A stretch of DNA of 64,000 bases from Bacteroidia bacterium (lineage in GTDB: Bacteria; Bacteroidota; Bacteroidia; 2-12-FULL-35-15), in NCBI GenBank assembly GCA_036386835.1, contig DASVUX010000011.1, forward strand, positions 192,291 to 256,290, written 5' to 3'. Made by a program: the position numbers and the translations under genes. Positions 21,082 to 51,758 of this stretch are shown here, in pieces. The notes under the pieces are model-generated. The model made no database searches, was not told the origin of the DNA, and saw nothing but the letters and a program-made list of their open reading frames with translations. Position 1 is the stretch's first letter, and each line of letters opens with the position of its first letter.

Positions 21082-21100
21082 GAACATAAAGAAAAATAAA

Positions 21101-21140
21101 ACGCTCCTGCTGGTCAACCGGCAGGAGCGTTTTTATTTTT
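21101..21140. terminator. bidirectional rho-independent terminator between the convergent PhoH-like gene and the propeller T9SS cargo gene
   Basis: Hairpin acgctcctgctgg-tcaa-ccggcaggagcgt (one mismatch) at 21101-21130. It is flanked by an A-run upstream and ttttattttt downstream, so it is usable on both strands. Confidence 0.65.
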
Positions 21141-21145
21141 AAAGG

Positions 21146-22234: not shown

Positions 22235-22265
22235 TTTGTTTGTTAAGTTGAAGGTATATAATCGA

Positions 22266-22475
22266 TTAGCTTTCTGATATTTCTTCCAGGTCCATCTTAC
22301 AAACCGGGCATTGCCCTGCTTTATCAAATTTTTCCTCTGTGCATTTCATCGGGCATTGATACTGGGTTTTTATATGTTCGTCTTCAACCTTTGCCGGTTC
22401 GGCACTTTGACTGCAACTAACAGCCAGAACAAGCGTAACAAAATACATTGTCAATATTAGGGTATGTTTTCTCAT
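22266..22475 (-). CDS. small lipoprotein with a four-Cys heavy-metal-binding domain (HMBD-like)
   Basis: Lipobox VLAVSC. Motif YQCPMKC....AGQCPVCKMDL matches the CPMxC...CPxCxM pattern of the N-terminal metal-binding domains of Bacteroidota CusB/CzcB-like and stand-alone HMBD proteins. Confidence 0.5.
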   Translation of the reverse strand: MRKHTLILTMYFVTLVLAVSCSQSAEPAKVEDEHIKTQYQCPMKCTEEKFDKAGQCPVCKMDLEEISES

Positions 22476-29935: not shown

Positions 29936-30442
29936 TTACTTCATCAGCTTCATAAAAGATCCGATGAGCCAGTTCTCATCCGCTTTGATAAGTGTATCCA
30001 GTGTGGTGTCTGCCTTCTTCGCGAAGCGCTCAATTTGTTCCATTGTATCTACAAATGCTTTTACATTGCGGTCACGTTTATCACCATCCACTTTTTTCAC
30101 CTCATCAAGTACCTTGAATATCGGTTCAAGCTCGCGCTTCCTTCTTTCTTTCGCGATCTGCTTAAATACTTTATATATATCCTTTTCGGCTGAAAAATAT
30201 TCTTTGCGTTCACCCGATCTCAGTTCTTTCTGTACAAGCCCCCAGCCGATAAGGGTCCTCACATTCATATTTGCATTTCCCCTTGAAATGTTCAGGTCTT
30301 CCATGATCTCTTCTGCGGTAAGCGCATCGGGTGAAACCAGCAGTAAGGCATGCACCTGTGCCATGGTCCTGTTAATGCCCCAGCTGGAACCAAGGGTTCC
30401 CCAGGCATTTATAAACTTTTCCCTGCTTTCTGCTAATTTCAT
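29936..30442 (-). CDS. GbsR/MarR-type winged-helix transcriptional regulator
   Basis: 168 aa. FINAWGTLGSSWGINRTMAQVHALLLVSPDALTAEEIMEDLNISRGNANMNVRTLIGWGLV matches the wHTH region of the GbsR/OpcR-like family (MarR_2). Confidence 0.6.
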   Translation of the reverse strand: MKLAESREKFINAWGTLGSSWGINRTMAQVHALLLVSPDALTAEEIMEDLNISRGNANMNVRTLIGWGLVQKELRSGERKEYFSAEKDIYKVFKQIAKERRKRELEPIFKVLDEVKKVDGDKRDRNVKAFVDTMEQIERFAKKADTTLDTLIKADENWLIGSFMKLMK

Positions 30443-30526: not shown

Positions 30527-30548
30527 AACCCCGGGGTCACCGGGGTTC
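30527..30548 (-). terminator. rho-independent terminator after the 1438-aa type-B cargo gene
   Basis: Palindromic hairpin aaccccgg-ggtcac-cggggtt. On the minus strand a uuuuuuauu tract follows it, 3 bp after the stop at 30552. Confidence 0.6.
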
Positions 30549-30551: not shown

Positions 30552-33500
30552 TTAATTGCTCAGGAGCTGAATATAACCCTGCTTATCGTATTCGGTTTCG
30601 TTTCTTGTCTTCGCTTTTAAGATATAGAAATATGTACCATCCGAACTGCCTGAACCGTTCCAGCCCTGATCCTGGTCAGTGGACTCGAACACCTTGTGTC
30701 CCCAGCGGTTGAAGATGCTTATCGAATAGGAAACCAGTCCGTTTGATTTTACTTTAAATTCATCGTTGATACCATCCCCATTAGGAGTAAATACGTTTGG
30801 AATGATAACCTGGCAATCATTTGTAACTTCGTAAATCACTGTATCGCTGCTGAAATTACCACAAAGGTCCATTACCATGATCTCATACATGTTAACGCCT
30901 TCCTGCGTGGCCATAACCGTTGCATTAGCTTGGTTGGAACCGGAAATAGTATCTGTTATGATTCCTGATATTATTGACCAATTGAATACATTTCCACCGA
31001 AACCACCGGTAGTTGTTGAGTTCAATAATAATGGCTCGTCAACACAAACGGCCCCATCAGGTCCCGCTGTTACAACAAGCGGTGTGGCTGTAAGAACGTT
31101 CACAGTTACGCTGTCTGTCACAGGGTCGGCACACGCTGCAGTTCCTGTAACAGTGTAAGTTATCGTAGATGTGGCACCGGACACGGTAGTAGCACCGGTT
31201 GTATTGGATAATGCAGTGGCCGGGCTCCATGTATAATTTGTTGCGCCAGTAGCAGTAAGAACATTCGGTACTCCAGGGCATGCAGTAATGTCCTCTCCTG
31301 CGTCCACAGTCAATATCACTGAATTAGCAGCAGTTACCGTAACCACATCAGAAACAGGATCCGCACAGGCAGCTGTTCCTGTAACCGTATATGTAATTGT
31401 GGTCATAGGGCTGGACACCGGGTTAGCGATGGTTGTGCTTGAAAGCGCTGTAGCCGGGCTCCATGTATAGCTGGTCGCACCTGTGGCATTCAGTGTTGTT
31501 GAGGCGCCCGGGCAAACAGAAACATTACTGCCGGCATCCACATTTAGGATTACCGAATTGACCGCATTAACAGTTATGCTGTCGACCTGGGTAGGAGCAC
31601 AAGGCACATTGGCGGTAACTGTATAGGTGGTGGTTGTATTGGTTGTCGCTACAGGGTTGGCAATTGAAGGATTTGAAAGGGTTGCAGCAGGGCTCCAGAC
31701 ATATGTTGAGGCTCCTGAAGCGCTTAATGTTGTTGGCGTGCCGGGACACACGGTTACATCTGCACCTACAGTTAAAGTAAATGTTGCAGGTGGCAATGCG
31801 ATCACACTGATCGTAGATGTATCTGCACAACCGCTCATGTTGTCTGTAACTACTAAGGTATAAGTTGTATCACCCGGAACAAATGCCCCTGTGCTCTGGG
31901 AAGTCGGGCTTGCTATCAAAGGATTTGGTGACCACAGATACGTAAAGTTGGCGGTATCAGCAGTTCCTCCGCAATGATGGAACCGGATCTGCGGATGTGC
32001 CATGGCCGTCTGTGGGAACGGGTTAAGAGTTGAACATTGCTCATCAGAATCGCTTAACGAATAGATCGTAGAAACATACGTGGTGGCATCATTCGTTGTA
32101 ATACAGTTATTCGTGTAGTTTGAGCCCGGATTTAACTCGCTGAAGCAAACCTGTACAATCACATTTGATATTCCGTCCCACTCGAATGAACCGGTAAACG
32201 GATGTGCATTCCAGCCTGTTGTAACATTGTAGGTTGCCGCAGGGAACACGGTCATGATACCAGGTTCAAAATCTGTAGCGCTGCTTGGGAAGCTTGTTAA
32301 ATTGGTACAGGTCATTCCTATTGAAAAATTGTGATAGGTGGAGATCCCGTTTATGGAAACAACATTGAAATCGATCTGTTCGATCTTTCCGCCCGTGATC
32401 CCTGCAGCATTTAATTCAGCTGCTGTATAAAGGTATTGCTGGCGAACCGATGTATACCAGTTTCCATATGGTGCAGGGTACGTGGTTGTAGTGTTGGATC
32501 CATTACCTGCACCTACAGTACCCGCTACTGCTCCTGAACATCCTACCGGGCTTACACCGCAAACTGCAGGAACTGCAGCTCCGAAATTTGCATGCAGCTG
32601 GATGGAATCACCAAGGCAAGCCGCAGAAGTGTAGCTTAATGTAGGATCCGGAGGGTAAGACGGTATTATTGTGATTATTGTAGTATCGAGCTTCACGCAG
32701 CCAACACTATTCGTGATCGCTACGTAATAATTATAAGTGCCCGGGGTGGTGATAGTGGCCACAGGATTCGGGATAGTGGTGCTGCTCAGGTAAGTTGCAG
32801 GGCTCCATGAATATCCATAAGTTCCGGTCGGGTTCACAACCGTATTTAACTGGATTGGATTTGCAAGACAGGATGTAGCTGTGCTTTGTGTTGTAGTAAA
32901 TGTATAATCAGGAGTAACGAATACTGTTACGGTATCTATATTGATACAGGTCCCTGTAAGATCACTTGTGACGATATACGTAGTAGTATCTGTTGGTGTA
33001 GCAACAGGATTAGCACACGGATTACAGGAAAAATTTGTTCCTACAACAATCGGAGGTCCGCTCAGTACCGTCCAGTTAAAGGTTGTTCCTCCTGTAGCGC
33101 TCAGGTTAGCACTTTGATTTCCGCAAAGAACCGTATCGCTGTTTGCAATTGTTCTGATCGCAGGCTGCACCAAAGCAGTAACGGTATCTTTTTTCTGGCA
33201 ACCAAAAGGACTGGTAATATTCACATAATAAGTAAATGTCCCGGCTGTGTTAATTGTCGCTGTAGGATTTGCGATAGAGTCATCATCAAGATCCGTTGAT
33301 GGCGTCCAATAGAAATCATAAGTTCCGGCCGGTGAACCTGAAACATTGAACTGTACAGATTGATCAAGACAAAGTGATGCCGTGCTTTGAGTGGTTGTAA
33401 AACTGAAATCCGGAACAACTGTAACGGTTACTGTATCCTTATTAACACAGGTTCCGCTAAGGTCACTGGTTACTTCATAAACAGTGGTCACTGATGGTGT

Positions 33501-34841
33501 GGCAACAGGGTTGTCACATGGGTTACATGAGAAATTAGTTCCTATTACTATGGGATCACCGCTGATTACCGCCCAGTTGAAGATGCTTCCGCCTGTGGCT
33601 GCGAATGTCGCAGACTGCGGCCCGCAAATGATCTGGTCAATTCCGCCAAGTGTCCTTGGCTGCACCTGGATGTCGTAAACAAATGTTTGCTGACCCGGTA
33701 CCGGGCATGCACCGTCATTTACAGTAATGCTGAACGTAGTATTTGTATTTGCAGTTCCTCCCGGAGCTGTCCAGCTTATCGTGGCAACAAGAGGATTTGA
33801 ACCAGAAGTTGTGATCACTGAACCCGGAAGCACAGAGGCAAGATTGGATATGATAAACAAGCTATCTGCTGAGTTAACGTCTGTAAACGTTGCGTTGAAT
33901 GTAAAATTTGAGCCTTCACATAATTCTATTGAGAATGGCCCTGTTTGCACAGCCGTACCAGTCATTCCGGTAATTGCACCGGCACCGGCATCCGGAACAA
34001 TATTAGAGCAGTTCTGAACGATAAATTGTATATCACGCATTACTGTCCCGATAAGGTTTCCCGCGGCATCGAATTCCTCTACAAGCACAACAACCACAAA
34101 ATTTCCGAGAGTTGTTGGGGTGAACGTAAGCATTCCTGTAAGCGGATCGATCGTAATACCTGGTATTGGGGAGGAAGCAGAATAACCTGGATTGTAAGCA
34201 AGATTTGTGGACGTACCTGTACCAAAATCGTAATCCAGGGCATTCACTAATGAATAGTACAGGGAATCACCGTCTGTTTCCACCACACCGTAACTGTAAT
34301 TTACTGCCTGACCCTGGCATACATAAGGGATCGGCTGTGAGGTAAAGGATGGAGAATTATTACATGGTGCGGTAACACTGTTTATGGTTGCTTCTATATA
34401 ACTTCCGAAAGAGGAAGCATTTACAAGATTCAATACCGCATTATTACGGCAGCAAACATTCCATTGGGCAGTCCATGTATCACATGGAGGAGCAAGCGTT
34501 ACTGTACCGGTGAAATTGAAGACCCACATACCCGGTAAACTACCTCCGTTACAGGTACTGTTATTCAGCTGTGTAGGACAAAGCTGTGATATTTCCGTCC
34601 CGCCCGGGTTAAGAACATTTACTGTTGTGGTCATTGTCTGGCCGCATGTACTGGTAAAAGTTATTGTCTGCGTTGCACCCGGATCAAAGCCAAGACAATC
34701 AACAAACAGGTTTAAGTTGATCTGGTACTGGTTATTACCAAGACAAACATAACTAAGATCACCTCCTGCAATGTGGGAGGCTTTAGCCGGGTTAATTAAG
34801 AAAATGGAAAGGAAGAAAATGGACGCAATTATTTTTTTCAT
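30552..34841 (-). CDS. large secreted protein with type-B T9SS C-terminal domain (gliding-motility-associated CTD, TIGR04131-like) and many Ig-like/PKD-like repeat modules
   Basis: The start is refined to MKKIIASIFFLSIFLINPAKA. C-terminus VIIPNVFTPNGDGINDEFKV...IFNRWGHKVFEST...GWNGS...GTYFYILKAKT...YIQLLSN is the type-B CTD signature. Internal repeats TxxTxTYTVTGTAACADPVxDxVTVxAxNSVIL and others. Confidence 0.8.
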   Translation of the reverse strand: MKKIIASIFFLSIFLINPAKASHIAGGDLSYVCLGNNQYQINLNLFVDCLGFDPGATQTITFTSTCGQTMTTTVNVLNPGGTEISQLCPTQLNNSTCNGGSLPGMWVFNFTGTVTLAPPCDTWTAQWNVCCRNNAVLNLVNASSFGSYIEATINSVTAPCNNSPSFTSQPIPYVCQGQAVNYSYGVVETDGDSLYYSLVNALDYDFGTGTSTNLAYNPGYSASSPIPGITIDPLTGMLTFTPTTLGNFVVVVLVEEFDAAGNLIGTVMRDIQFIVQNCSNIVPDAGAGAITGMTGTAVQTGPFSIELCEGSNFTFNATFTDVNSADSLFIISNLASVLPGSVITTSGSNPLVATISWTAPGGTANTNTTFSITVNDGACPVPGQQTFVYDIQVQPRTLGGIDQIICGPQSATFAATGGSIFNWAVISGDPIVIGTNFSCNPCDNPVATPSVTTVYEVTSDLSGTCVNKDTVTVTVVPDFSFTTTQSTASLCLDQSVQFNVSGSPAGTYDFYWTPSTDLDDDSIANPTATINTAGTFTYYVNITSPFGCQKKDTVTALVQPAIRTIANSDTVLCGNQSANLSATGGTTFNWTVLSGPPIVVGTNFSCNPCANPVATPTDTTTYIVTSDLTGTCINIDTVTVFVTPDYTFTTTQSTATSCLANPIQLNTVVNPTGTYGYSWSPATYLSSTTIPNPVATITTPGTYNYYVAITNSVGCVKLDTTIITIIPSYPPDPTLSYTSAACLGDSIQLHANFGAAVPAVCGVSPVGCSGAVAGTVGAGNGSNTTTTYPAPYGNWYTSVRQQYLYTAAELNAAGITGGKIEQIDFNVVSINGISTYHNFSIGMTCTNLTSFPSSATDFEPGIMTVFPAATYNVTTGWNAHPFTGSFEWDGISNVIVQVCFSELNPGSNYTNNCITTNDATTYVSTIYSLSDSDEQCSTLNPFPQTAMAHPQIRFHHCGGTADTANFTYLWSPNPLIASPTSQSTGAFVPGDTTYTLVVTDNMSGCADTSTISVIALPPATFTLTVGADVTVCPGTPTTLSASGASTYVWSPAATLSNPSIANPVATTNTTTTYTVTANVPCAPTQVDSITVNAVNSVILNVDAGSNVSVCPGASTTLNATGATSYTWSPATALSSTTIANPVSSPMTTITYTVTGTAACADPVSDVVTVTAANSVILTVDAGEDITACPGVPNVLTATGATNYTWSPATALSNTTGATTVSGATSTITYTVTGTAACADPVTDSVTVNVLTATPLVVTAGPDGAVCVDEPLLLNSTTTGGFGGNVFNWSIISGIITDTISGSNQANATVMATQEGVNMYEIMVMDLCGNFSSDTVIYEVTNDCQVIIPNVFTPNGDGINDEFKVKSNGLVSYSISIFNRWGHKVFESTDQDQGWNGSGSSDGTYFYILKAKTRNETEYDKQGYIQLLSN

Positions 34842-34979
34842 TTGTATTGATTTTGTGTAATAACTCAAAGAAAATTAACAGTTATATAAAACCGATAATA
34901 TATATCGTTTGCTAAAATAGTCTTTTTATTTAAATTACAATGCAGCGGGGAAATTCCAGCTCTCCCCTGCTTTCCCCTA

Positions 34980-37900
34980 TTAACTTCCGAGAACCTGCAC
35001 ATGCCCTTTTTCTTCTGTTTCAGAGCCATCGGCCCCTTTGATCTTTAAGATGTAAAAATAGGTTCCGTCCTCTGCCTTACCGCTGTCGGAGGAGCCATCC
35101 CAGCCACTGGCCGCGTCTCCACTCCATTCATAAATCTTTTTTCCCCAGCGGTTGAATATAGCGCCATCCACCCCGGTGACACCAATCGACTGGATCCCGA
35201 AGAAATCATTCTTATTATCACTGTTTGGTGTAAAAACATTCGGGATGGAATAGGTCATCTCTTCAAACACCTCGATAGTGAATACTGCTGAATCGACACA
35301 AGGGAAGCCTCCGTTGGTAGCATACAACAGTACGGTGTAGGTTCCGTTTGCCGCGTAAATCGCAGATGGGTCGGTTAGTGTTGAAACGGCTCCGTTGCCA
35401 AAATCCCAGGTATAATTTATTGCTCCTGTAGATGTGTTCGTAAAGCTAACAGTTAAAGGTTTAGGCCCTGAAGGGGGAGTTGCCGTAAAGGACGCATTGA
35501 CATTAGATATTTGCCCGACATTTACCGTTTGTGACGTTGCGCATCCCAAAGCATCAGTAATTATCACATTATACATTCCCTGGCTTAACGAAGAAAATGT
35601 ATTTCCGCTTTGCGGTGCATTTCCGTTAAGGGAATACATAAAGGGACCTGTTCCCCCGCTTACCGCACCAATTGTTATCTCACCGTCATTATCAAAACAT
35701 GTTTCATCGCTGACTGACGCTGTGGCTACTGTAATCGTATTGCTAACAGTTACAACCACCGTATCACTGTCTGTACATCCTGCCAAATTTGATCCTGTGA
35801 CGATATAGGAGGTTGTCTGGGAAGGATTGGCTGACGGATTTGCAATATTGCTGATATTAAGTCCGGCTGACGGGCTCCAGAAATAGGAATTTGCTCCTGA
35901 GGCATTCAGCTGAGCGGACAGCCCGCTGCAGATGCTTACATCCTGCCCTGCATTAACAACCGGAACGGAATTAACGGTGATGGTCACCTGCGAAGTCGCG
36001 GTACAGAATCCTGCTCCTGTAACGGTTACGGTATAAGTTGTTGTTGTAGAAGGGAAAGCAAAAGGATTCTGAATTATTGTGCTGCTTAACCCTGCAGCAG
36101 GTGCCCAGGAATATGTCACACCTCCGCTGGGATTAAGTATTGTACTGTCGCCCATGCAAATACTGGTATTTGTTCCTGCATTGGCAGCCGGTATATTATG
36201 AACCACTACGGTAACCGTATCCTGTGAAGAGCAGCCATTGAGATCGGTACCTGTTACAGTGTACAAGGTGGTTACGCCCGGGGAAGCAACAGGATTTGGT
36301 ATGTTCGGGTTATTAAGCGAACCCGCGGGTGACCATGAATATGTGTTTGCACCGCTTACAGAAAGATTTGCATTTGAACCATTGCAGACTGAAAGTGAAG
36401 CACCGGAATTCACTGCAGGAAGCGAATTAACCCCAACAGTAACATAGGCTGTATCCGAGCAGCCGGAGCCTGCTGTACCAATCACCGTATAGGTTGTTGA
36501 AGAAGAAGGAAATGCAAGCGGATTTGCGATGGAGTCATCGCTTAATGTTGCAGCGGGTAACCAGTAATATGTAAGAGCTCCGCTAACGTTCAGCGCGGTA
36601 CTATCTCCCTGGCATATAACAGCATTACCGGCAGCAGTGATGGTTAAACCATTCAGACCAATATTAACAGTGTCTGTATTCACACAGCCATTGGTATCAA
36701 CCCCGGTAACTACGTATGTAGTTGGAGAGCCAGGACTTGCGACCGGATTAGAAAGAGTGGAATCGTTTAGTGTTGCACCGGGTGACCACATATAGCTGTC
36801 CGCACCGCTTGCGTTCAGGTTGATACCCGATCCGATGCATATGCTAAGGTCTGGTCCTGCATTCACTGACGGCAGTGAATCAACCCTTACAAATACACTG
36901 TCGATACCTGAACATCCGAGTGCATCCGTAACCATAACTGTGTACGTGACAGAGGAAAGCGGCCCCGCAACCGGATTAAAAACAGATGTATCACTCAGGC
37001 CTGCCGAAGGAACCCATGCATACTGCATCCCCCCTGAGGCTGAAAGCATGATGCTGTCTCCTAAACAAATACTAGTATCAGCACCGGCATCTGCAACCAC
37101 GGCAGGAATAATTGTAATGATTACGGAATCACTGGCGGAACAGCCGGTACTGCTATTGGAAACTGTAACATAATAGACCATATTACCTGTCGGGCTTGCC
37201 ACAGGGTTTGCTATGGACGGATTACTAAGATCTGTGGCCGGTGACCAGAGATAGCTATCTCCTCCGCTTGCCCCCAGCATTATACTGCTACCCTGGCAAA
37301 TAGCAGTATCCGGGCCTGCATCTGCTCCCGGGTTAAGAATAATAACGGAAACCGTATCACTGCTGCTGCACCCTACGGAGTTGGTGATGGTTAATGTATA
37401 AGTTGTTGTTACAACGGGTGTGGCCACAGGAGTAAGAATGGTAGAATCATCAAGGGTTGCAGCCGGGCTCCAGGAATAAGTCCCGACTGGTCCGTTTCCT
37501 CCAAGCATTATATTATCCCCGCTACAGATCCCGGATGGAAATCCTGCATCAACAACAGGTGCAAACTCAACCCCTACAGATACCGTATCAAAACCTACAC
37601 AGCCGGATGCGTCAGTGACCATAACGGTATAAACGGTTGTGGAGGACGGGCTGGCGATCGGATTTGCAATTGCAGGATTGTTAAGTCCTGTTGCAGGAGA
37701 CCAGGAATATATTGTGCCTCCGCTAGCACCAAGCATAGTGGATGAGCCCTGGCAGATCTTCGTGTACGGACCTGCGTCAACAGGAATATTAATGGAATTA
37801 ACCACCACGGTATCTGTGTTATTACCTCCGGTAGCAACCCCGCAGCCATTAGGCCCGTCCACTTTTGCATAATAATATTGAGGAGAGGCGACCGGGCTTA

Positions 37901-38753
37901 GTGTAACATTGGCCCCTGTGCCAACAAGCGCATTGGATGGGAATTCATACCAGTTAATGGTGTAAGTTGCTGAGCCGTTTGGCGTGTACCTCCAGCCCTC
38001 GTTGCTGGCTGTCCATTGCGTGTTGTTCCGGCCCGGAACCGTGAAGGCAACAGTACCTGCCGCATTATGAACTCCTTGGGTTGCAAGGCCGGGATTAGCT
38101 GTTGGCCATGAAAGACAGTTTGGTTTACTAACAATAAAATTCTCTATCGTATTCCAGGTCTCATATATGATTATCTGAAAGGTTCCACGGTTTCCCGTGC
38201 ATTGATACATTGGAATATTATTCCATGTAACCACCAATCTTCGGAAAGGAGCTGTTCCCAGTGTTTGATGGTTTATGTAGGGCCCTGTTCCGAACCCTGG
38301 ATGCCAGTCCTGCCATGGCCCCATGATGCAATTCTTAGGGACTGCCGCAACTGTAGAAGGGATAGTAGCTGCAGTGTATGTGGTTGCGCTTGCTCCCTGC
38401 GGGGTAAATGCAATCCAGCCATTAGACCCGATGTAGAAATTGGTGTAAGAAGTACCAAAAAAACAAAACGAAAACCCGATCGGGAAAGGACCAACCTGTG
38501 AATCGTCAGTTGCAGAAGACGTAATACCACCAGTTAAAGGTCCCGGAGCAAAGGGAATGCTTGAAACAGCGTAGGAGTTTGTAGGCAGGCTGCCGGGTGC
38601 AGTTGGTGCACCGGGTGGCGTTATGGTGGCAGTCAGGTTTACTGAGCCCCCGGAACAGATGTTTGAAACCTCCGGCTCTGCATCTATTGTTTGTGCTCTT
38701 AGAAACTGGGTATTAAAATATATTAAGGAGAGTATAAAAAATAAACGTTTCAT
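34980..38753 (-). CDS. large secreted protein with type-B T9SS C-terminal domain and ~12 tandem Ig-like modules (YSWSPAxGLxxxxIxNPxAxPxxTTxYTV)
   Basis: The start is refined to MKRLFFILSLIYFNTQFLRAQ. C-terminus IPNVFTPNSDNKNDFFGIQS...IFNRWGKKIYEWSG...GWDGS...GTYFYILKIKG..GHVQVLGS. A PKD-like module ..YTWDFGNG.. lies near the C-terminus. Confidence 0.8.
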   Translation of the reverse strand: MKRLFFILSLIYFNTQFLRAQTIDAEPEVSNICSGGSVNLTATITPPGAPTAPGSLPTNSYAVSSIPFAPGPLTGGITSSATDDSQVGPFPIGFSFCFFGTSYTNFYIGSNGWIAFTPQGASATTYTAATIPSTVAAVPKNCIMGPWQDWHPGFGTGPYINHQTLGTAPFRRLVVTWNNIPMYQCTGNRGTFQIIIYETWNTIENFIVSKPNCLSWPTANPGLATQGVHNAAGTVAFTVPGRNNTQWTASNEGWRYTPNGSATYTINWYEFPSNALVGTGANVTLSPVASPQYYYAKVDGPNGCGVATGGNNTDTVVVNSINIPVDAGPYTKICQGSSTMLGASGGTIYSWSPATGLNNPAIANPIASPSSTTVYTVMVTDASGCVGFDTVSVGVEFAPVVDAGFPSGICSGDNIMLGGNGPVGTYSWSPAATLDDSTILTPVATPVVTTTYTLTITNSVGCSSSDTVSVIILNPGADAGPDTAICQGSSIMLGASGGDSYLWSPATDLSNPSIANPVASPTGNMVYYVTVSNSSTGCSASDSVIITIIPAVVADAGADTSICLGDSIMLSASGGMQYAWVPSAGLSDTSVFNPVAGPLSSVTYTVMVTDALGCSGIDSVFVRVDSLPSVNAGPDLSICIGSGINLNASGADSYMWSPGATLNDSTLSNPVASPGSPTTYVVTGVDTNGCVNTDTVNIGLNGLTITAAGNAVICQGDSTALNVSGALTYYWLPAATLSDDSIANPLAFPSSSTTYTVIGTAGSGCSDTAYVTVGVNSLPAVNSGASLSVCNGSNANLSVSGANTYSWSPAGSLNNPNIPNPVASPGVTTLYTVTGTDLNGCSSQDTVTVVVHNIPAANAGTNTSICMGDSTILNPSGGVTYSWAPAAGLSSTIIQNPFAFPSTTTTYTVTVTGAGFCTATSQVTITVNSVPVVNAGQDVSICSGLSAQLNASGANSYFWSPSAGLNISNIANPSANPSQTTSYIVTGSNLAGCTDSDTVVVTVSNTITVATASVSDETCFDNDGEITIGAVSGGTGPFMYSLNGNAPQSGNTFSSLSQGMYNVIITDALGCATSQTVNVGQISNVNASFTATPPSGPKPLTVSFTNTSTGAINYTWDFGNGAVSTLTDPSAIYAANGTYTVLLYATNGGFPCVDSAVFTIEVFEEMTYSIPNVFTPNSDNKNDFFGIQSIGVTGVDGAIFNRWGKKIYEWSGDAASGWDGSSDSGKAEDGTYFYILKIKGADGSETEEKGHVQVLGS

Positions 38754-38888
38754 CAAATCTGATTTTTTAAAGTTTACGGGAGTAAAAGTACAAAAACCTT
38801 TGATAGCGGCTACGTTTTTTTCGTACATCAGAAGTCCAGCACTGTATTTAAAAATCTGACCTGCAATTCAATACAAAAAGAGCAAACC

Positions 38889-39881
38889 TTACCTGGTCAA
38901 TTTGATGGTTCCTTTTTGGTCGTATTTTTTGCCGTCAATACCTATTGCATTGATAATGAAGAAATAGATTCCTTCTTTAGCGGGTTTACCTTCCAGGTCC
39001 TTTCCGTCCCACTGGCCTTTTGTGCCCTGCCATTTATAAATCGTAGTTCCTGTCTTGTCAAAAATAACCACATCCATGTTAGAAATATCCTGGCTGTTTA
39101 CTTTGAACACATCCACAGAACCATCTCCGTTCGGAGAGAAAGTAGTGGGAACTGAAGAGATGGACGAGTTACCGAAGACTTCTATTTTCACACTATCGGT
39201 GGATATTTTCCCGTCAGGACCGGTGGATGTGAGAGAGATGGTATATATTCCCGGAATATCATAAACATGTACAGGGTTTGCACCTGTTTCTTTCTGGCCG
39301 TCACCGAAATCCCATTTGTTAACCTTACCGGTGCCGCTGTTTGAAACATTGACGATCAGCGGTACGGTGCCGCCAATGGGTGATGCGGAGATAGATGCAA
39401 TCGTGTGATCAGAATACTGGCTGATCACCTCTTTCATTTTTTCTTTTTTGATATGTGTCGGGCTTTTATCCGTCTTCTGTGCTTTCCCGCTCTCTGCCGG
39501 CAGAGTATTCTCTTTTACAGCCGGGGTATTGCTTTGTGCTGATGTGTTATCTGTTAAGAATTCTTTAATCTCCTGCGGGGCTAAAGGTTTAACGGTTTCA
39601 TGCTGTTCCCCGGCCACCGGTTGCTTTGTTTCTGCGCCTGGCTTTGGCTGGGATTTCCCGCCTAAATTCATGATCACTACGGTAGATATTACAGCCGCGG
39701 CAGATGAAACCACAGCCACAATCGTACTTGTGCCTATCTTATTCAATAATGCTTTTCCAAGTAATCCGATCCCAATACCTTTCAGGGCAGTCTGTATGTT
39801 GGACCATACACCAGGACTCACCTCAGCCTCAAAATCCTTAAACGAATCCTTGAAAAGATCCTCTATATCGTTTTTCTTCAT
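38889..39881 (-). CDS. membrane-anchored protein (anti-sigma-like topology) with PKD domain and type-B T9SS C-terminal domain
   Basis: No cleavable signal peptide: a ~45-aa charged N-terminus MKKNDIEDLFKDSFKDFEAEV..W..I, then one TM segment (IGTSTIVAVVSSAAAVISTVVIM), a Pro/Lys-rich linker, PKD motif KWDFGDGQKETGANPVHVYDIPGIYTISL, and type-B CTD PTTFSPNGDGSVDVFKV...IFDKTGTTIYKWQG...GIYFFIINA. The start codon lies 3 bp after the ECF sigma stop. Confidence 0.65.
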   Translation of the reverse strand: MKKNDIEDLFKDSFKDFEAEVSPGVWSNIQTALKGIGIGLLGKALLNKIGTSTIVAVVSSAAAVISTVVIMNLGGKSQPKPGAETKQPVAGEQHETVKPLAPQEIKEFLTDNTSAQSNTPAVKENTLPAESGKAQKTDKSPTHIKKEKMKEVISQYSDHTIASISASPIGGTVPLIVNVSNSGTGKVNKWDFGDGQKETGANPVHVYDIPGIYTISLTSTGPDGKISTDSVKIEVFGNSSISSVPTTFSPNGDGSVDVFKVNSQDISNMDVVIFDKTGTTIYKWQGTKGQWDGKDLEGKPAKEGIYFFIINAIGIDGKKYDQKGTIKLTR

Positions 39882-39884
39882 AAT

Positions 39885-40415
39885 TTATTCCCTGTCTACC
39901 GGGATAATTTTTTGCAAATGAGCTTTCGCCCGTGAATATTGAGATTTGGAGGTGCCTTCGGAAATTCCAAGCATATCACCTATTTCTTTGTGGGAGTAGC
40001 CCTCAATAGCATAAAGGTTAAATACGGTGCGAAAACCTGTGGGTAGTGTCTGAATGATTTTCAAGAGATCCTTCGCAGCAAAGCTTTCGCTCATGTAATT
40101 GCTTGAAGGAAGCATGAATTCAACACTCTCCAGTTCTATGTTTTGTTTCAGTTTCTTGTTTTTTCTAATGTTGGTAAGGGCCGTATTCACCATTATCTTT
40201 CTTACCCATCCTTCCAGTGAACCTGCGCCCCTGAATGTTTCGATGTTCTGAAAGACGCTGATAAACCCATTCTGCACTACATCTTCAGCCTCTTCGTGAT
40301 TGTCGCAATAACGCAGACAAACACCCATCATTTTCTTTGAAAAACGCTCGTACAGATGCCTTTGAGCTATGGCATCTTTTTTAATGCAACCTTGTACTAT
40401 TTGCTCATCGGTCAT
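39885..40415 (-). CDS. ECF-type RNA polymerase sigma-70 factor
   Basis: 176 aa. Region 2 (DAIAQRHLYERFSKKMMGVCLRYCDNHEEAEDVVQNGFISVFQ) and region 4 HTH (YAIEGYSHKEIGDMLGISEGTSKSQYSRAKAHLQKII). Confidence 0.85.
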   Translation of the reverse strand: MTDEQIVQGCIKKDAIAQRHLYERFSKKMMGVCLRYCDNHEEAEDVVQNGFISVFQNIETFRGAGSLEGWVRKIMVNTALTNIRKNKKLKQNIELESVEFMLPSSNYMSESFAAKDLLKIIQTLPTGFRTVFNLYAIEGYSHKEIGDMLGISEGTSKSQYSRAKAHLQKIIPVDRE

Positions 40416-40431
40416 AACGTTTTTCTACCAG

Positions 40432-40461
40432 TTAAGACACAAAGTTGCAACATTTGGTTGC
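40432..40461 (-). promoter_or_regulatory. candidate ECF-type autoregulatory promoter upstream of the sigma gene
   Basis: Minus strand reads GCAACC-(18 nt)-TCTTAA, which resembles AAC-containing -35 and TCTnA -10 elements of ECF promoters, about 15 nt upstream of the ATG. It overlaps the inverted repeat tgcaac-atttg-gttgca (40446-40462). Confidence 0.25.
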
Positions 40462-40532
40462 ACAGGAAGTGAAATTTTTACTTTTTATTAACAAATGTAT
40501 TTTTAACCAATAAACAATAGCACTTTTGAAAA

Positions 40533-42935: not shown

Positions 42936-43340
42936 TCAGTCGATAAGCGCCTCTAACAGCCTTGCTGTGTCGTCTCCTGACTTGCTGTTCTTGAGGTTCA
43001 GCGGCTTTAATATATAGCCTGTTACGCCCAGGTTTTGTGCAGCCATCTTATCATATTCTTCCCCGGAAGTAGTAATGATGAATATTTTTATGTTTTTAAG
43101 GCTGTAATAACTTTTAACTATTCCTAAAAATTCAAGGCCGTTCATTTTCGGCATGTTTATATCCAGCAGGATCACATCCGGCTGGATCTTGTTCTCTTCC
43201 GATGTAAGCATTTCAATAGCATCCACGCCATTATGTGCAACATGGAGCGTGTGGTTAATGTGGTTTTTTTTGAGTGACCTTCTGATGCTCTCCACATCCA
43301 GGTAATCATCCTCCACTAAAAGAATAACACTGTTTTTCAT
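42936..43340 (-). CDS. stand-alone response-regulator receiver domain protein (CheY-like)
   Basis: 134 aa. VILLVEDD with phospho-acceptor Asp in ILLDINMP and a conserved Lys (YILKP). No output domain. 4-bp overlap (ATGA) with the upstream kinase gene. Confidence 0.8.
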   Translation of the reverse strand: MKNSVILLVEDDYLDVESIRRSLKKNHINHTLHVAHNGVDAIEMLTSEENKIQPDVILLDINMPKMNGLEFLGIVKSYYSLKNIKIFIITTSGEEYDKMAAQNLGVTGYILKPLNLKNSKSGDDTARLLEALID

Positions 43341-44809
43341 ATCTGGTTCTTAATATCGGCCTTTGGCCAGGTAAAAATAAATGATGTGCCTTTTCCTAAC
43401 TCGGACTCCACCCTGATCGTCCCTTTATTGTCCTCTATCACTTTCTTAACGATGGCAAGGCCAACGCCCGTACTTTCAAAGGCATCACGTTCCTGCAGTG
43501 TCTGAAAGATGATAAAGATTTTATCAAAATACTTGGAATCAATCCCGGGCCCATTATCAGTAACATAAAAACAATAATGGTCTGTGAATTCTTCTGAACG
43601 GATAATGATCTTCCCGTCTTTACGATGGTTATATTTTACGGCATTGCTGATCAGGTTGGAAAAAACCTGTTCCAGGTGGAGCTTCTCTGCAAACAATGTC
43701 GGCATCGGTCCGATCACCACATTATAATTACGTGGAACGAGCAGGTCTATTAATTCCCTGACAAGAATTTCGAGTTCGATCTTTTCGGTCCCACGCTTTA
43801 TTTTTCCTACCCGGGCATACTCCAGCAGACCGTTAATCATGTTCTCAAGCCTGTTTGTTCTTCCTTTGATCAATGAAAGGTTGTGCCTGATTTCGGGTGT
43901 GGTGTCCTGCTCGTGATCTTCTTCCACCCAGGAAACTATATTTGCAATCCCACGCAGGGGTGCCTTGAGGTCATGCGAAACCACATACGCGAACTGGTCA
44001 AGTTCCCTGTTCTTTTTTGTAAGCTCGTTAAAATTCTTCTCCAGTGTGAGAGACATGGTATTCAATGATATTGCAAGGTTATTAAGCTCATCTTTCTTAT
44101 TATCTTCAATAGTGCGGAATTCCCCTTTTGAAATCGCCTTGGCAAGATTTACCATTTTGGAGATCCTCTTGGTAATAACCCTGATGAGATAAAAGCTGGA
44201 TATAATTGCAAGAAATACAGAAGCGACTGTAAGTGAAAGGGTAATGATTTTTGTACTTTCCAATGATTGCTGGAGTGCTTTTCTTCTTTCCTGCCTGATC
44301 TGGTATTCAAGATTATCAAAGCCACGGAAAATATTCTGGATGCGGTCATTAAGCTTTTTGCCAACTTCTGTCCTTAGCTTTGTTTCAAATAACTGCTGGT
44401 ATAATTTACTTGCATCCGGGAAGGTATCGAGGCGCGTAGTTATAAGCTGTTTTGAATATTGGATCCACTGGTGGTGCAGCTTATTAATCGTATCCAGGTC
44501 ATTCTTTTGCGCAGTGGTAGAAACCAGTCCGCGCTCCTCTTCCAGCCGCGGTGGAACACTTTTGAGTCCATGGTAATATGGCTGCAGAAAGCTTTTTTGC
44601 CCTGTAAGTAAGAATCCCCTGAAACCGCTCTGCATCTCAATCATTTCTTTCTGAAGCAGATTTGAGTTCCGGATGATCGTTTCTGAATTACTGATATAGG
44701 TCGTATTCCTGATGACTTCGTTTGATAACTTCTGGTTAACAAAAAAGTCAATTACAAAAATAAAGATCAATATAAAAAAGCCCGTGAAGAGCTGAAACTT
44801 TATCGACAT
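43337..44809 (-). CDS. sensor histidine kinase with periplasmic helical sensor (CHASE3-like, tentative), HAMP, HisKA and HATPase domains
   Basis: TM1 at the N-terminus, a ~170-aa periplasmic region, TM2 (ITLSLTVASVFLAIISSFYLI), HAMP, H-box VSHDLKAPLRG, and N/G1/G2 boxes (NAVKYN, DNGPGID, GTGVGLAIV). Confidence 0.8.
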   Translation of the reverse strand: MSIKFQLFTGFFILIFIFVIDFFVNQKLSNEVIRNTTYISNSETIIRNSNLLQKEMIEMQSGFRGFLLTGQKSFLQPYYHGLKSVPPRLEEERGLVSTTAQKNDLDTINKLHHQWIQYSKQLITTRLDTFPDASKLYQQLFETKLRTEVGKKLNDRIQNIFRGFDNLEYQIRQERRKALQQSLESTKIITLSLTVASVFLAIISSFYLIRVITKRISKMVNLAKAISKGEFRTIEDNKKDELNNLAISLNTMSLTLEKNFNELTKKNRELDQFAYVVSHDLKAPLRGIANIVSWVEEDHEQDTTPEIRHNLSLIKGRTNRLENMINGLLEYARVGKIKRGTEKIELEILVRELIDLLVPRNYNVVIGPMPTLFAEKLHLEQVFSNLISNAVKYNHRKDGKIIIRSEEFTDHYCFYVTDNGPGIDSKYFDKIFIIFQTLQERDAFESTGVGLAIVKKVIEDNKGTIRVESELGKGTSFIFTWPKADIKNQI

Positions 44810-44921
44810 TGCTGAGTATTTACAATAGAATTCCCATTGAAGAATTCGGGTAATGCGATATTAAGTATAAAAAAATAAAATCGGAATTGAGAAGATGAGA
44901 ATTCTTACTGTAACGCAAAAA

Positions 44922-44941
44922 TTGTAGAATCCATTCTACAA
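44922..44941. promoter_or_regulatory. perfect 9-2-9 palindrome TTGTAGAAT-CC-ATTCTACAA in the promoter region of the HK/RR operon
   Basis: Read directly. It lies 113 bp upstream of the kinase start codon (44809) and just downstream of the LytTR-regulator terminator. The 2-nt spacer is too short for a stable hairpin, which favours a protein-binding operator. Confidence 0.35.
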
Positions 44942-44975
44942 CTCTGTTAATATTATTCAGGAACCGGCTTAAATT

Positions 44976-45008
44976 AAAAAAGCCATCGCTTTTTGCAATG
45001 GCTTTTTA
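44976..45008 (-). terminator. rho-independent terminator after the LytTR response regulator gene (usable bidirectionally)
   Basis: Hairpin aagccatcgc-ttttt-gcaatggctt flanked by an A-run and a T-run. 19 bp downstream of the stop at 45027. Confidence 0.55.
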
Positions 45009-45026
45009 TGAGTGGTTCCCTGGTTT

Positions 45027-45779: not shown

Positions 45780-45782
45780 CTT

Positions 45783-51602: not shown

Positions 51603-51758
51603 AATTTATCTTCTATACAAATTTAATCAAAAATGCAGCGGTTTCAAAACAGAAGAAGCTCCTCATCTGATTTTTCCTGCTTTTTTAACGTCTTTTGCAA
51701 TGTCATTAATTTCAGGTCTTTCAGAATAATGTTATACTTTTATAAAAAACAACGTACC

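What the first reader, a model, noticed from the sequence alone, without database searches (positions are those of the whole stretch)
30552..40461. ECF sigma factor, a membrane-anchored PKD/type-B-CTD protein and two giant type-B T9SS adhesins in one co-directional block
The sequence shows an ECF sigma gene (40415-39885). Three bp later comes a protein (39881-38889) with anti-sigma-like topology: a short cytoplasmic N-terminus and a single TM helix. Its extracytoplasmic part is a PKD domain plus a type-B T9SS C-terminal sorting domain. Two type-B cargo genes of 1282 and 1438 aa follow on the same strand, with only 60-110 bp gaps and a terminator only after the last one. A T9SS CTD on a protein that appears inner-membrane anchored, with no cleavable signal peptide, is an odd combination. 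It suggests a sigma/anti-sigma pair whose anti-sigma ectodomain is itself a T9SS substrate or a decoy. Expression of the two adhesins could thereby be coupled to T9SS activity or cell-envelope state. This is inference from gene order and domain grammar, not from a known named system.
Basis: partly seen in the sequence, partly recalled or inferred. Interest (0 to 1): 0.7.

Follow-up and report, generated by a model that had tools for sequence, protein, structure and literature searches.

The report
Anti-sigma factor with T9SS secretion tail
A stress-type (ECF) sigma factor gene is paired with a membrane-anchored inhibitor whose outer end is a sorting signal for the Bacteroidota type IX secretion system. 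This looks like an undescribed variant of the envelope-spanning 'Dma' anti-sigma factors, and the two giant adhesin genes next door are linked to it in evolution but carry promoters of their own.

Summary
The described features are real. 39885-40415(-) encodes an ECF sigma factor. Three bp downstream, 38889-39881(-) encodes a 330-aa protein, X. X has a conserved acidic N-terminus (residues 1-35), one TM segment (53-71), a variable ~88-aa linker, a PKD domain and a type-B T9SS C-terminal domain (CTD).

X is not ordinary cargo. Its N-terminus and TM are its best-conserved parts. The N-terminal module recurs in thousands of Bacteroidota proteins that follow an ECF sigma gene and mostly end in an outer-membrane beta-barrel. 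That is the published Dma architecture, in which Dma1 residues 1-40 bind the sigma factor Das1.

The rnr<-|sigma->X core is conserved in all 43 related loci. A footprinted ECF promoter, TGCAACC-N16-TTGCRTCT, sits upstream of sigma in all 42 related loci with enough upstream sequence, and in the window. Three further lineages carry sigma plus an N-module/CHU_C protein.

The adhesin part of the reading is only partly supported. Type-B cargo sits directly after X in 21 of 39 loci, against 1 of 328 background ORFs, and recurs in two other lineages. However, no ECF promoter precedes the adhesins. They have sigma-A-type -7 boxes, and terminators or a structured element separate them from X in many loci.

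Verdict: a new variant of a known kind.

The parts
40435..40462 (-). Autoregulatory ECF-type promoter. The -35 element is TGCAAC (40457-40462) and the -10 element is GTGTCT (40435-40440).
   Evidence: TGCAACC-N16-TTG[CT][AG]TCT is present at the same place (motif window ending 12-16 nt, 26 in two loci, before the ATG) upstream of sigma in all 42 related loci with enough upstream sequence. Its spacer varies in distant loci. In the window, 11 matches with up to 1 mismatch were found against 4.3 expected. The only perfect match lying upstream of a gene start is this one. It is the only high PWM score in the window and in each locus. The same kind of motif lies upstream of sigma in lineages A, B and C and in barrel-type loci L048 and L049.
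39885..40415 (-). ECF sigma factor, 176 aa
   Evidence: Sigma70_r2 and r4_2, and TIGR02937 at 97.7 bits. It is 69-97% identical in the 43 X-family loci. It is 50-60% identical to sigmas of the other CTD-type lineages and 40-48% to barrel-type (Dma-like) Flavobacteriaceae sigmas. Its nearest solved relatives are SigE, SigH, SigW and RpoE.
39777..39881 (-). X residues 1-35: conserved acidic N-terminal module, the inferred sigma-binding region
   Evidence: 77% mean identity across family alignment A1, with invariant D8 F10 K11 F14 F17 E18 P23 W26 N28. AF2 predicts helices at 5-14 and 23-35 with low confidence. A profile of this module finds 6439 cluster representatives at E<=1e-3. Of 93 long hits, 52 match OMP_b-brl and 45 match OMP_b-brl_2. 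No Pfam, NCBIfam or PDB match exists.
39666..39776 (-). X residues 36-72: amphipathic stretch plus a single transmembrane segment (53-71)
   Evidence: The Kyte-Doolittle 19-residue maximum is 2.32 at residues 53-71. Identity in the family is 69-72%, so the segment is too conserved for a disposable signal peptide.
39402..39665 (-). X residues 73-160: variable K/E/T/P-rich linker, the inferred periplasmic tether
   Evidence: 23% identity, with length kept at 73-99 aa in 82 of 86 members (median 81.5). AF2 pLDDT is below 50 through residue 140.
39168..39401 (-). X residues 161-238: PKD domain
   Evidence: PKD_4 46.7 bits and PKD 34.7 bits. AF2 models a beta-sandwich with pLDDT 83-92. Identity in the family is 70%.
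38889..39167 (-). X residues 239-330 plus stop codon: type-B T9SS C-terminal sorting domain
   Evidence: CHU_C 62.7 bits and TIGR04131 41.8 bits, both above cut-off. The motif residues F248 P250 N251 D253 D257 W291 D292 G293 G304 Y306 are invariant. pLDDT is 85-95. The whole PKD+CTD cassette aligns collinearly with the last 168 residues of adhesin 1 (37% identity, E 1e-29).
38783..38790 (-). Sigma-A-type -7 box (TACTTTTA) 29 nt upstream of the adhesin-1 ATG
   Evidence: The box (G)TA[CT]TTTTG/A is conserved upstream of adhesin-1-type genes in L001-L003, L005, L012, L015, L017-L019 and L026, whatever the gap length. The TAnnTTTG consensus for Bacteroidota sigma-A is taken from PMC9723704.
34980..38753 (-). 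Adhesin 1: type-B T9SS cargo, 1257 aa from the signal-peptide Met
   Evidence: Ig_7 96.6 bits, SprB repeat, PKD, CHU_C 69.2 bits, TIGR04131 45.7 bits. It has a canonical signal peptide. Orthologues are 46-70% identical but present in only some loci.
34942..34970 (-). Hairpin after adhesin 1, a weak terminator candidate
   Evidence: In the window the centroid energy is -14.1 kcal/mol and z is -0.6. At the orthologous position, L001 has z -5.1 and L003 has z -7.8 with a U-run. The stem sequence differs between L003 and L001/L002 while pairing is kept.
34912..34919 (-). -7-like box TATTTTAG, 70 nt upstream of the adhesin-2 ATG
   Evidence: The sequence 'TA(T/A)TTTAGCAAA' is conserved in L001-L003 after the hairpin.
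30552..34841 (-). Adhesin 2: type-B T9SS cargo, 1429 aa from the signal-peptide Met
   Evidence: CHU_C 76.9 bits and TIGR04131 44.2 bits. It has a canonical signal peptide. Orthologues are variable in presence and sit before adhesin 1 in L006, L007, L011 and L031.
30527..30547 (.). Strong bidirectional intrinsic terminator after adhesin 2
   Evidence: An 8-bp G+C-rich stem with a T-run was found by the scan. On the minus strand the fold gives 12 pairs including A-U, -18.2 kcal/mol, z -3.1.

Best explanation
The core of the finding is a self-contained, autoregulated ECF sigma/anti-sigma module: promoter 40435-40462, sigma 39885-40415 and X 38889-39881.

- Its conserved N-terminal ~35-40 residues hold the sigma factor at the cytoplasmic face of the inner membrane.
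- One TM helix anchors it.
- A ~88-residue disordered tether crosses the periplasm.
- Dma proteins end in a BAM-inserted 8-stranded barrel. X ends instead in a folded PKD + type-B CTD cassette, the same terminal cassette as the neighbouring SprB/Ig_7-type adhesin.

The state of that outer attachment, meaning T9SS competence or load, or envelope integrity, then sets the stability of X. When the attachment is lost or strained, X is cut by regulated proteolysis. Sigma is freed and transcribes from TGCAACC-N16-TTGCRTCT promoters. The only such promoter visible here is its own.

The adhesin genes are evolutionarily linked passengers behind the module. They have their own sigma-A-type promoters and may also receive read-through transcription.

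Shown: domain content, conservation pattern, gene pairing, promoter footprint, N-module homology to barrel-type proteins, and cargo enrichment. Inferred: sigma binding, topology, T9SS engagement, proteolytic release, and the nature of the signal.
For: (1) Pairing. rnr<-|sigma->X occurs in 43 of 43 loci, with a 3-bp spacer or overlap.

(2) X's N-terminus and TM are its best-conserved parts (77% and 72%, against 23% for the linker). True cargo in the same block has short canonical signal peptides.

(3) The N-module is homologous to that of proteins of 465-525 aa with TM, long linker and C-terminal OMP_b-brl_2 barrel. These are encoded right after 40-48%-identical ECF sigmas (L044-L049, L057, L059-L061). 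An exhaustive profile search gives 6439 representatives, 1187 of them at E<=1e-10, and barrels dominate the long hits.

(4) That architecture is the published Dma family. Dma1(1-40) pulls down Das1, and full-length Dma1 spans both membranes (PMC10927553). The family definition is in 10.1101/2025.09.27.678952.

(5) A two-block ECF promoter is conserved upstream of sigma in all CTD-type lineages and in barrel-type loci L048 and L049.

(6) The CTD is under purifying selection. All CHU_C motif residues are invariant, and it scores above the Pfam and TIGR04131 cut-offs. AF2 gives two confident beta-sandwiches behind a disordered region.

(7) The organism uses a T9SS. A PorP/SprF gene lies at 55337-56353, and the window holds nine CTD-bearing genes including X: four type A and five type B.

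(8) Three further lineages have sigma plus N-module-TM-linker-CHU_C without PKD. About 25 clusters of 289-343 aa were found. Their sigmas are 47-60% identical to one another and to the window's (93% within lineage A), against 34-48% to the barrel-type sigmas.

(9) X's PKD+CTD is collinear with the C-terminal 168 residues of adhesin 1 (E 1e-29).
Against: - No direct comparison with BT_4721 (Dma1) or Reo was possible. The link to Dma rests on shared architecture, shared context and the paper's statement that Dma1 occurs in 27 of 29 Bacteroidota.
- Assignment of the sigma to group ECF21 could not be tested. Only the TIGR02937 superfamily model passes its cut-off.
- AF2 did not model the TM or N-terminus with confidence (pLDDT below 50 for residues 1-140).
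- SignalP and DeepTMHMM were not available.
- The tether of ~88 residues is much shorter than the roughly 200-residue linkers of the barrel-type proteins seen here. It may be too short to pass both the periplasm and the outer membrane.
- No PorP/SprF partner gene lies next to X.
- A tethered polypeptide passing a T9SS translocon has no precedent.
- Nothing here shows secretion, proteolysis or the regulon. No target promoter other than sigma's own was found in 64 kb plus about 0.8 Mb of related flanks.
Confidence: 0.6

Rival explanations
1. Sigma, X and the two adhesins form one transcription unit. Sigma activity, gated by X and the T9SS, is the main control of adhesin expression.
For: - All four genes lie on the same strand, and no significant hairpin separates X from adhesin 1 in the window.
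- Type-B cargo lies directly after X in 21 of 39 loci, against 1 of 328 background ORFs.
- In lineage B the cargo follows the anti-sigma gene after 27-75 bp with no visible hairpin or -7 box by eye (not folded). Lineage C also ends in a CHU_C cargo gene.
- In compact X-family loci the gap is only 48-57 bp.
Against: - No ECF promoter motif lies upstream of either adhesin, in the window or in any locus.
- A sigma-A-type -7 box is conserved upstream of adhesin-1-type genes, and a hairpin plus a -7-like box lies between the adhesins.
- Adhesins are absent from 18 loci, in which sigma-X abuts marR or ppx/ppk. Lineage A also lacks them.
- Adhesin order is swapped in four loci.
- In nine loci a ~200-nt structured element with a strong terminator separates X from the adhesin.
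Confidence: 0.25
2. X is the anti-sigma factor, but its PKD+CHU_C end is never secreted. It stays in the periplasm as a co-opted beta-sandwich sensor or decoy that binds a T9SS component, a PorP-like protein or cargo.
For: - The tether is short (median 81.5 aa).
- No adjacent PorP/SprF gene is present.
- An inner-membrane anchor is hard to reconcile with passage through a translocon.
- CHU_C is a plain Ig-like sandwich; the fold search returns only generic tandem beta-sandwiches.
- In P. gingivalis, PorA is a small Ig-like + CTD protein with a signalling role that reaches the surface without the T9SS translocon (PMC7712824).
Against: - All sequence motifs of secreted type-B CTDs are invariant across more than 100 homologues, and scores exceed the curated cut-offs.
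- The cassette is collinear with that of a real cargo protein.
- In the homologous barrel-type proteins the C-terminal domain does reach the outer membrane (PMC10927553).
Confidence: 0.25
3. X is an ordinary small T9SS cargo protein with a long N-terminal leader, and its position next to a sigma gene has no functional meaning.
For: It carries only PKD + CHU_C by Pfam and is annotated 'gliding motility-associated C-terminal domain-containing protein' by the sources. The window is crowded with T9SS cargo genes.
Against: - About 50 residues precede the hydrophobic segment, the first 36 with net charge -2.
- Residues 1-72 are the most conserved part.
- The N-module is shared with thousands of non-CTD proteins that also follow ECF sigma genes.
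- The sigma-X pairing is invariant in 43 of 43 loci and in three other lineages.
Confidence: 0.05

Closest known systems
[quoted passage not shown] 2024, PMC10927553; 10.1101/2025.09.27.678952)
   Same: The gene lies immediately downstream of an ECF sigma gene in Bacteroidota. The protein has a short N-terminal sigma-binding region of about 40 aa, one TM helix, a long disordered tether, and a C-terminal domain destined for the outer membrane. X's N-module is homologous to that of OMP_b-brl_2-ended proteins with this architecture.
   Different: The C-terminal 8-stranded barrel, which is the family's defining fourth element, is replaced by PKD + type-B T9SS CTD, or by CHU_C alone in lineages A-C. 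Outer-membrane targeting would therefore depend on the T9SS rather than on BAM. The tether is shorter, about 88 aa. CTD-type sigmas are more similar to one another than to the barrel-type sigmas compared. No direct alignment to BT_4721 was possible.
PorA -> PorXY -> SigP of Porphyromonas gingivalis (PMC7712824)
   Same: A small Ig-like domain + T9SS CTD protein acts as a reporter of T9SS or cell-surface state and feeds an ECF sigma factor.
   Different: PorA is a free cargo protein with a 27-residue signal peptide, and it acts through a two-component system. SigP has no anti-sigma factor of this kind. In X the Ig-like + CTD reporter is fused directly to the anti-sigma factor.
FlgM / sigma-28 (flagellar type III export); from general knowledge
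   Same: The logic is shared: an anti-sigma factor that is itself a substrate of the secretion machine whose status it reports.
   Different: FlgM is soluble and is exported whole. X is anchored in the inner membrane, so only its far end could be engaged. The two proteins are not homologous.
FecA-FecR-FecI cell-surface signalling and RseA/sigma-E; from general knowledge and the discussion in PMC10927553
   Same: Signalling from the outer membrane to an ECF sigma factor through a single-pass anti-sigma factor, with release by regulated proteolysis.
   Different: X has no FecR, RseA, zf-HC2 or RskA domain. In X the receptor and the anti-sigma factor would be one polypeptide.
SprB/SprF-type type-B T9SS cargo of Flavobacterium johnsoniae (Kulkarni et al. 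2019, as cited in PMC9723704)
   Same: It has a TIGR04131/CHU_C C-terminal domain preceded by an Ig-like domain. Adhesin 1 has SprB and Ig_7 repeats.
   Different: X lacks a cleavable signal peptide and an adjacent PorP/SprF gene. A canonical cargo + PorP/SprF pair does exist elsewhere in the window, at 55337-60685.

Membership tests
[quoted passage not shown] | N-terminal anti-sigma (sigma-binding) region of about 40 residues | tested here: inconclusive
   X residues 1-35 are homologous to the N-termini of barrel-ended proteins that follow ECF sigma genes. The profile search gave 1187 hits at E<=1e-10, and identity is 60-72% over residues 3-34 in L044-L049. No sequence of BT_4721 or Reo was available, and binding was not tested.
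[quoted passage not shown] | Single transmembrane helix after the N-terminal region | tested here: met
   The hydropathy maximum is 2.32 at residues 53-71, and this is the only hydrophobic segment. It is 72% conserved. AF2 did not model it with confidence.
[quoted passage not shown] | Long intrinsically disordered tether | tested here: met
   Residues 73-160 are K/E/T/P-rich, 23% identical across the family, conserved in length, and pLDDT is below 50 through residue 140. The tether is shorter than the linkers of the barrel-type relatives seen here.
[quoted passage not shown] | C-terminal outer-membrane beta-barrel (OMP_b-brl_2) | tested here: not met
   Pfam finds PKD_4 + CHU_C and no barrel. 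AF2 gives two beta-sandwiches.
[quoted passage not shown] | Encoded next to a cognate ECF21-group sigma factor | tested here: inconclusive
   Adjacency is met in 43 of 43 loci. The ECF21 assignment could not be made because no ECF-group models were available, and only TIGR02937 passes its cut-off. The sigma is 40-48% identical to sigmas of barrel-type loci, and the promoter motif is similar.
T9SS type-B cargo (TIGR04131 / CHU_C) | C-terminal type-B sorting domain above the curated cut-off | tested here: met
   TIGR04131 41.8 bits (cut-off 35) and CHU_C 62.7 bits (cut-off 27), at the extreme C-terminus.
T9SS type-B cargo (TIGR04131 / CHU_C) | Cleavable N-terminal Sec signal peptide | tested here: not met
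   About 50 conserved residues precede the hydrophobic segment, the first 36 with net charge -2, and that segment is itself conserved. The adhesins have 20-21-residue canonical signal peptides. This is a rule- and conservation-based test; SignalP was not available.
T9SS type-B cargo (TIGR04131 / CHU_C) | Adjacent PorP/SprF-like partner gene (frequent, not obligatory) | tested here: not met
   None lies next to X, adhesin 1 or adhesin 2. The only PorP/SprF gene in the window (55337-56353, 142.5 bits) abuts another cargo gene.
T9SS type-B cargo (TIGR04131 / CHU_C) | Export across the outer membrane by the T9SS | not testable with these tools
   This needs fractionation or surface labelling in wild-type and T9SS-mutant cells.
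ECF (group 4) sigma-70 factors | Sigma-2 and sigma-4 regions only, about 170-200 aa | tested here: met
   r2 covers residues 21-88 and r4_2 covers 116-167. The protein is 176 aa, with TIGR02937 at 97.7 bits.
ECF (group 4) sigma-70 factors | Autoregulatory promoter with an AAC-containing -35 and a short conserved -10 | tested here: met
   TGCAAC-N17-YRTCT is conserved in all 42 related loci examined at a fixed distance from the ATG. Use by this sigma factor is inferred.
Class I anti-sigma factors (ASD; zf-HC2, RskA) and FecR-like anti-sigma factors | Recognisable anti-sigma domain or FecR domain | tested here: not met
   There are no Pfam or NCBIfam hits in residues 1-75 even at permissive E-values, and no PDB relative.

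The most novel reading that the evidence does not exclude
X and its CHU_C-only relatives form a distinct, ancient subfamily of envelope-spanning anti-sigma factors that are substrates of the T9SS. The secretion or gliding machinery engages, or pulls on, the type-B CTD of an inner-membrane-tethered anti-sigma factor. Sigma release would then directly report T9SS activity, cargo load or surface traction. This is FlgM-like logic, or a mechanosensor, for type IX secretion and gliding. The neighbouring type-B adhesin, whose terminal cassette X copies, would be the cargo being monitored.
Probability: 0.25. Interest if true: 0.85.

Novelty: new variant of a known kind. Interest (0 to 1): 0.62.

Why it matters
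How Bacteroidota sense the state of their type IX secretion and gliding apparatus is largely unknown outside PorXY-SigP in P. gingivalis. How Dma-type anti-sigma factors reach and read the outer membrane is an open question raised by their discoverers.

A Dma-like anti-sigma factor that ends in a T9SS sorting domain gives a concrete, testable link between the two. It predicts that one polypeptide connects the T9SS to RNA polymerase. It offers a natural comparison for what the outer domain of Dma proteins does, with BAM-inserted and T9SS-delivered versions side by side. It also defines a promoter motif, TGCAACC-N16-TTGCRTCT, with which the regulon can be read from genomes.

The variant is common in uncultured freshwater and soil Bacteroidia. 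More than 285 clusters at 90% identity were found for the PKD form and about 25 for the CHU_C-only forms. All of them are currently annotated simply as gliding-motility C-terminal-domain proteins.

Tried and rejected
- Word-indexed protein search with the N-terminal profile: it returned only short contig-end fragments. These were useful solely as input for the exhaustive search.
- Pfam and NCBIfam on the N-module, and NCBIfam on five related sigmas: no specific family. The sigma_PG0214 model scores 80-92 bits, below its cut-off of 130.
- PDB sequence search with the N-module: only noise.
- Foldseek of the AF2 model against the PDB: only generic tandem Ig/FnIII sandwiches, with PorU among them.
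- AF2 of X: uninformative for residues 1-140. A sigma+X complex prediction was not attempted, because only window or returned sequences may be submitted and no paired alignment could be built.
- Metagenome scan with the N-module: only 12 loci, though these included the new CTD-type locus L058.
- Rfam on the window, L030 and L006: no family.
- The EcfO/Reo paper (PMC3536166) and the Dma supplement are not held, so no BT_4721 or Reo sequence and no ECF21 promoter could be obtained.
- Casas-Pastor et al. gave no usable description of ECF21.
- The generic sigma-70 promoter and terminator scan was at chance level. It was replaced by phylogenetic footprinting.
- The hypothesis that the adhesins carry a weaker copy of the ECF promoter was rejected. 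No site of 14 bits or more (maximum 33) lies upstream of any adhesin. The few sub-16-bit hits in that coordinate range all fall inside coding sequence.

Full report
1. What is in the window.

The block on the minus strand holds four ORFs. The first, 39885-40415, is a 176-aa ECF sigma factor with Sigma70_r2, r4_2 and TIGR02937 at 97.7 bits. Its stop codon is followed by three bases and then the ATG of 38889-39881.

That 330-aa protein, called X here, has PKD_4 over residues 173-235. It ends in a CHU_C/TIGR04131 type-B T9SS sorting domain over residues 244-328, above both curated cut-offs.

X has one hydrophobic segment. The Kyte-Doolittle 19-residue maximum is 2.32 at residues 53-71. About 50 residues precede it, and the first 36 carry a net charge of -2. 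A K/E/T/P-rich stretch follows it.

The next two genes are type-B cargo. Adhesin 1 has Ig_7, SprB, PKD and CHU_C. Adhesin 2 has CHU_C. Their real starts are very probably the Met codons that open canonical signal peptides, at 38753 and 34841. The intergenic gaps are then 135 and 138 bp.

A strong terminator follows adhesin 2. RNase R is transcribed divergently from 40533.

2. X is not ordinary cargo.

X has more than 285 full-length homologues of 320-340 aa, all from uncultured Bacteroidia. In an alignment of 19 diverse members the regional identities to the window protein are as follows.
- N-terminus, residues 1-35: 77%.
- Amphipathic stretch: 69%.
- TM segment: 72%.
- Linker: 23%.
- PKD: 70%.
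- CTD: 54%.

A disposable signal peptide would not be the best-conserved part of a protein. Linker length is held at 73-99 residues in 82 of 86 members. AF2 gives two confident beta-sandwiches (pLDDT 83-95) behind a low-confidence region covering residues 1-140.

3. The conserved unit is sigma + X.

In one metagenomic locus and 42 genome loci, the arrangement rnr<-|sigma->X is invariant. Sigma is 69-97% identical and X is 37-73% identical.

Upstream of sigma, all 42 related loci with enough upstream sequence, and the window itself, carry TGCAACC-N16-TTG[CT][AG]TCT, with the motif window ending 12-16 nt (26 in two loci) before the ATG. In distant loci the spacer sequence diverges while both blocks stay fixed, which is the signature of a two-block ECF promoter. 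The window copy is at 40435-40462.

4. What the N-terminal module is.

The genome scan also returned Flavobacteriaceae loci that match only X residues 3-34. There the module opens proteins of 465-525 aa with a TM, a long low-complexity linker and a C-terminal outer-membrane barrel that ends in ...SFKF (OMP_b-brl_2). These proteins are encoded right after an ECF sigma 40-48% identical to the window's.

An exhaustive profile search with the module found 6439 cluster representatives at E<=1e-3, of which 1187 were at E<=1e-10. Of 93 long top hits, 52 match OMP_b-brl and 45 match OMP_b-brl_2.

[quoted passage not shown] Its elements are an N-terminal sigma-binding region, a TM helix, a long disordered tether and a C-terminal barrel, next to an ECF21 sigma. 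Dma1(1-40) pulls down Das1, and full-length Dma1 spans both membranes (PMC10927553; definition in 10.1101/2025.09.27.678952).

X meets the first three elements and fails the fourth. The barrel is replaced by PKD + type-B CTD.

I could not obtain the BT_4721 or Reo sequences. I also could not classify the sigma to an ECF group. Membership is therefore argued from homology to proteins of Dma architecture, not from Dma1 itself.

5. The CTD form is a family, not a one-off.

Three further lineages encode sigma plus a protein of N-module, TM, linker and CHU_C without PKD.
- Lineage A: L046, L065, L066.
- Lineage B: L058, L063, L064, L067, L068.
- Lineage C, in Flavobacteriales: L062, L069.

About 25 clusters of 289-343 aa were found. 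All have the TGCAAC[CT]-N16-...CATCT motif upstream of sigma. Barrel-type loci L048 and L049 have a closely related motif.

Sigmas of the four CTD-type lineages are 47-60% identical to one another (93% within lineage A) and 34-48% identical to the barrel-type sigmas compared. This suggests a distinct subfamily rather than repeated recent domain swaps.

Literature searches combining anti-sigma, T9SS, type-B CTD and Dma1 found no description of such proteins.

6. The adhesins.

Against a single sigma-driven operon:
- The ECF motif occurs only upstream of sigma. This holds in the window and in a PWM scan of the window plus all loci, where no site of 14 bits or more lies upstream of an adhesin.
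- Adhesin-1-type genes carry a conserved (G)TA[CT]TTTTG/A box about 30-45 nt before the ATG. It matches the Bacteroidota sigma-A -7 consensus TAnnTTTG (PMC9723704).
- A hairpin follows adhesin 1. It is strong in L001 and L003 and weak in the window. A -7-like box follows the hairpin.
- Adhesins are missing from 18 of 39 informative loci, in which X abuts marR or ppx/ppk. They are present as one or two genes, in either order, in the rest.
- In nine loci a conserved ~200-nt structured element ending in a strong terminator lies between X and the adhesin.

For a real link:
- Type-B cargo occupies the position directly after X in 21 of 39 loci. Only 1 of 328 other flank ORFs carries a type-B CTD.
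- Lineages B and C also have a CHU_C cargo gene downstream on the same strand. In lineage B the gaps are 27-75 bp with no hairpin visible by eye; these gaps were not folded.
- X's PKD+CTD cassette aligns collinearly with the last 168 residues of adhesin 1 (37% identity, E 1e-29). It is closer to adhesin 1 than to other cargo in the window.
- No significant hairpin separates X from adhesin 1 in the window.

The adhesins are best described as linked, facultative passengers with promoters of their own. They are possibly also reached by read-through transcription.

7. Mechanism.

The best-supported reading is a Dma-like trans-envelope anti-sigma factor whose outer anchoring depends on the T9SS instead of BAM. 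The N-module holds sigma. The TM anchors the protein. The tether crosses the periplasm. The folded PKD+CTD, a copy of a cargo protein's terminal cassette, is engaged by the T9SS. The organism clearly has a T9SS, since a PorP/SprF gene lies at 55337-56353 and the window holds nine CTD-bearing genes including X.

Loss of that engagement, or strain on it, would expose X to regulated proteolysis and free sigma, which at least autoactivates.

The gene pairing, the domain grammar, the conservation pattern, the promoter and the family relationships are shown. Sigma binding, topology, secretion, proteolysis and the signal are inferred.

The main rival keeps the anti-sigma role but leaves the CTD in the periplasm as a sensor or decoy. 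The short tether, the lack of an adjacent PorP/SprF gene and the anchoring problem favour it. The strict conservation of cargo-type CTD motifs argues against it.

8. Verdict.

It turns out to be a new variant of a known kind, the Dma family. The claim that sigma and X control the two adhesins as one block is not supported by the promoter evidence, although genomic linkage to type-B cargo is real. Interest is moderate to high, because it offers a testable physical link between type IX secretion and an ECF sigma factor.

Noticed in passing
L006:10988-11277, L007:10964-11241, L011:10958-11234, L027:10964-11244, L030:10967-11228, L031:5358-5600, L032:10964-11273, L035:10967-11230, L040:10994-11224: A conserved ~200-nt non-coding element lies directly after the X stop codon (GGGGCATCGGGAAG...GGTCCAACGTCAG...AATCCTGTTTTTAGCTCTACCACCACTACA...CCGGTGTCTCC). 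It ends in a GGTATC/GATACC hairpin with a T-run. RNAalifold predicts 71 pairs, 15 of them with compensatory changes. It has no Rfam family and is absent from the window. It may be a structured 3'UTR or a small RNA that ends the sigma-X transcript.
   Followed up: partly
window 55337-60685 (-): This is a canonical type-B cargo + partner pair. A 1443-aa protein with DUF7948, PKD and CHU_C (56354-60685) abuts a PorP/SprF gene (55337-56353, 142.5 bits). A 722-aa ORF without Pfam hits (53187-55355) overlaps the PorP/SprF gene by 19 nt. By contrast, X, adhesin 1 and adhesin 2 have no PorP/SprF neighbour.
   Followed up: partly
window 6626-22327, 51633-52865 and 60908-63988: The window is unusually dense in T9SS cargo. 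Type-A (Por_Secre_tail) proteins of 1868, 2338, 393 and 410 aa are present, plus a further CHU_C protein at the window edge. Counting X, nine genes in 64 kb carry a T9SS CTD.
   Followed up: partly
window 40483-40499 (-): A second conserved block (ACATTTGTTAATAAAA; (A/G)TTTGTT(A/G)ATAAA in most loci) lies about 20-35 nt upstream of the ECF -35 element. In the window it contains a TAnnTTTG match (TACATTTG). It may be a sigma-A promoter giving basal sigma-X expression, or an element of the divergent rnr promoter.
   Followed up: no
L005:10986-11393: A 135-aa ORF immediately after X resembles the CTD half of X (49% identity over 94 aa, and it matches the CTD HMM). It looks like a partial tandem duplicate of the X C-terminus.
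   Followed up: no
L062:6050-9021 and L069:6103-10839: In the Flavobacteriales CTD-type lineage, two or three PTL_trimer / Peptidase_S74 proteins (tail-fibre-like, with an intramolecular chaperone) lie between the anti-sigma gene and an Ig_7+CHU_C cargo gene, all on one strand.
   Followed up: no
window 42936-50045 (-) and L001:1-7019: A block of signalling genes is syntenic with rnr-sigma-X in L001. It comprises a CHASE3-HAMP histidine kinase with a stand-alone receiver, a LytTR response regulator, and a 1420-aa multi-PAS HisKA_2 kinase. Lineage A has an OmpR-type two-component pair directly upstream of its sigma.
   Followed up: no
window 29936-30442 (-): A MarR/CudC-like regulator (168 aa) lies just past the adhesin-2 terminator. 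It is 84-89% conserved and is the gene that directly follows X in adhesin-less locus L033. The adhesins therefore sit as an insertion between X and a conserved backbone.
   Followed up: partly
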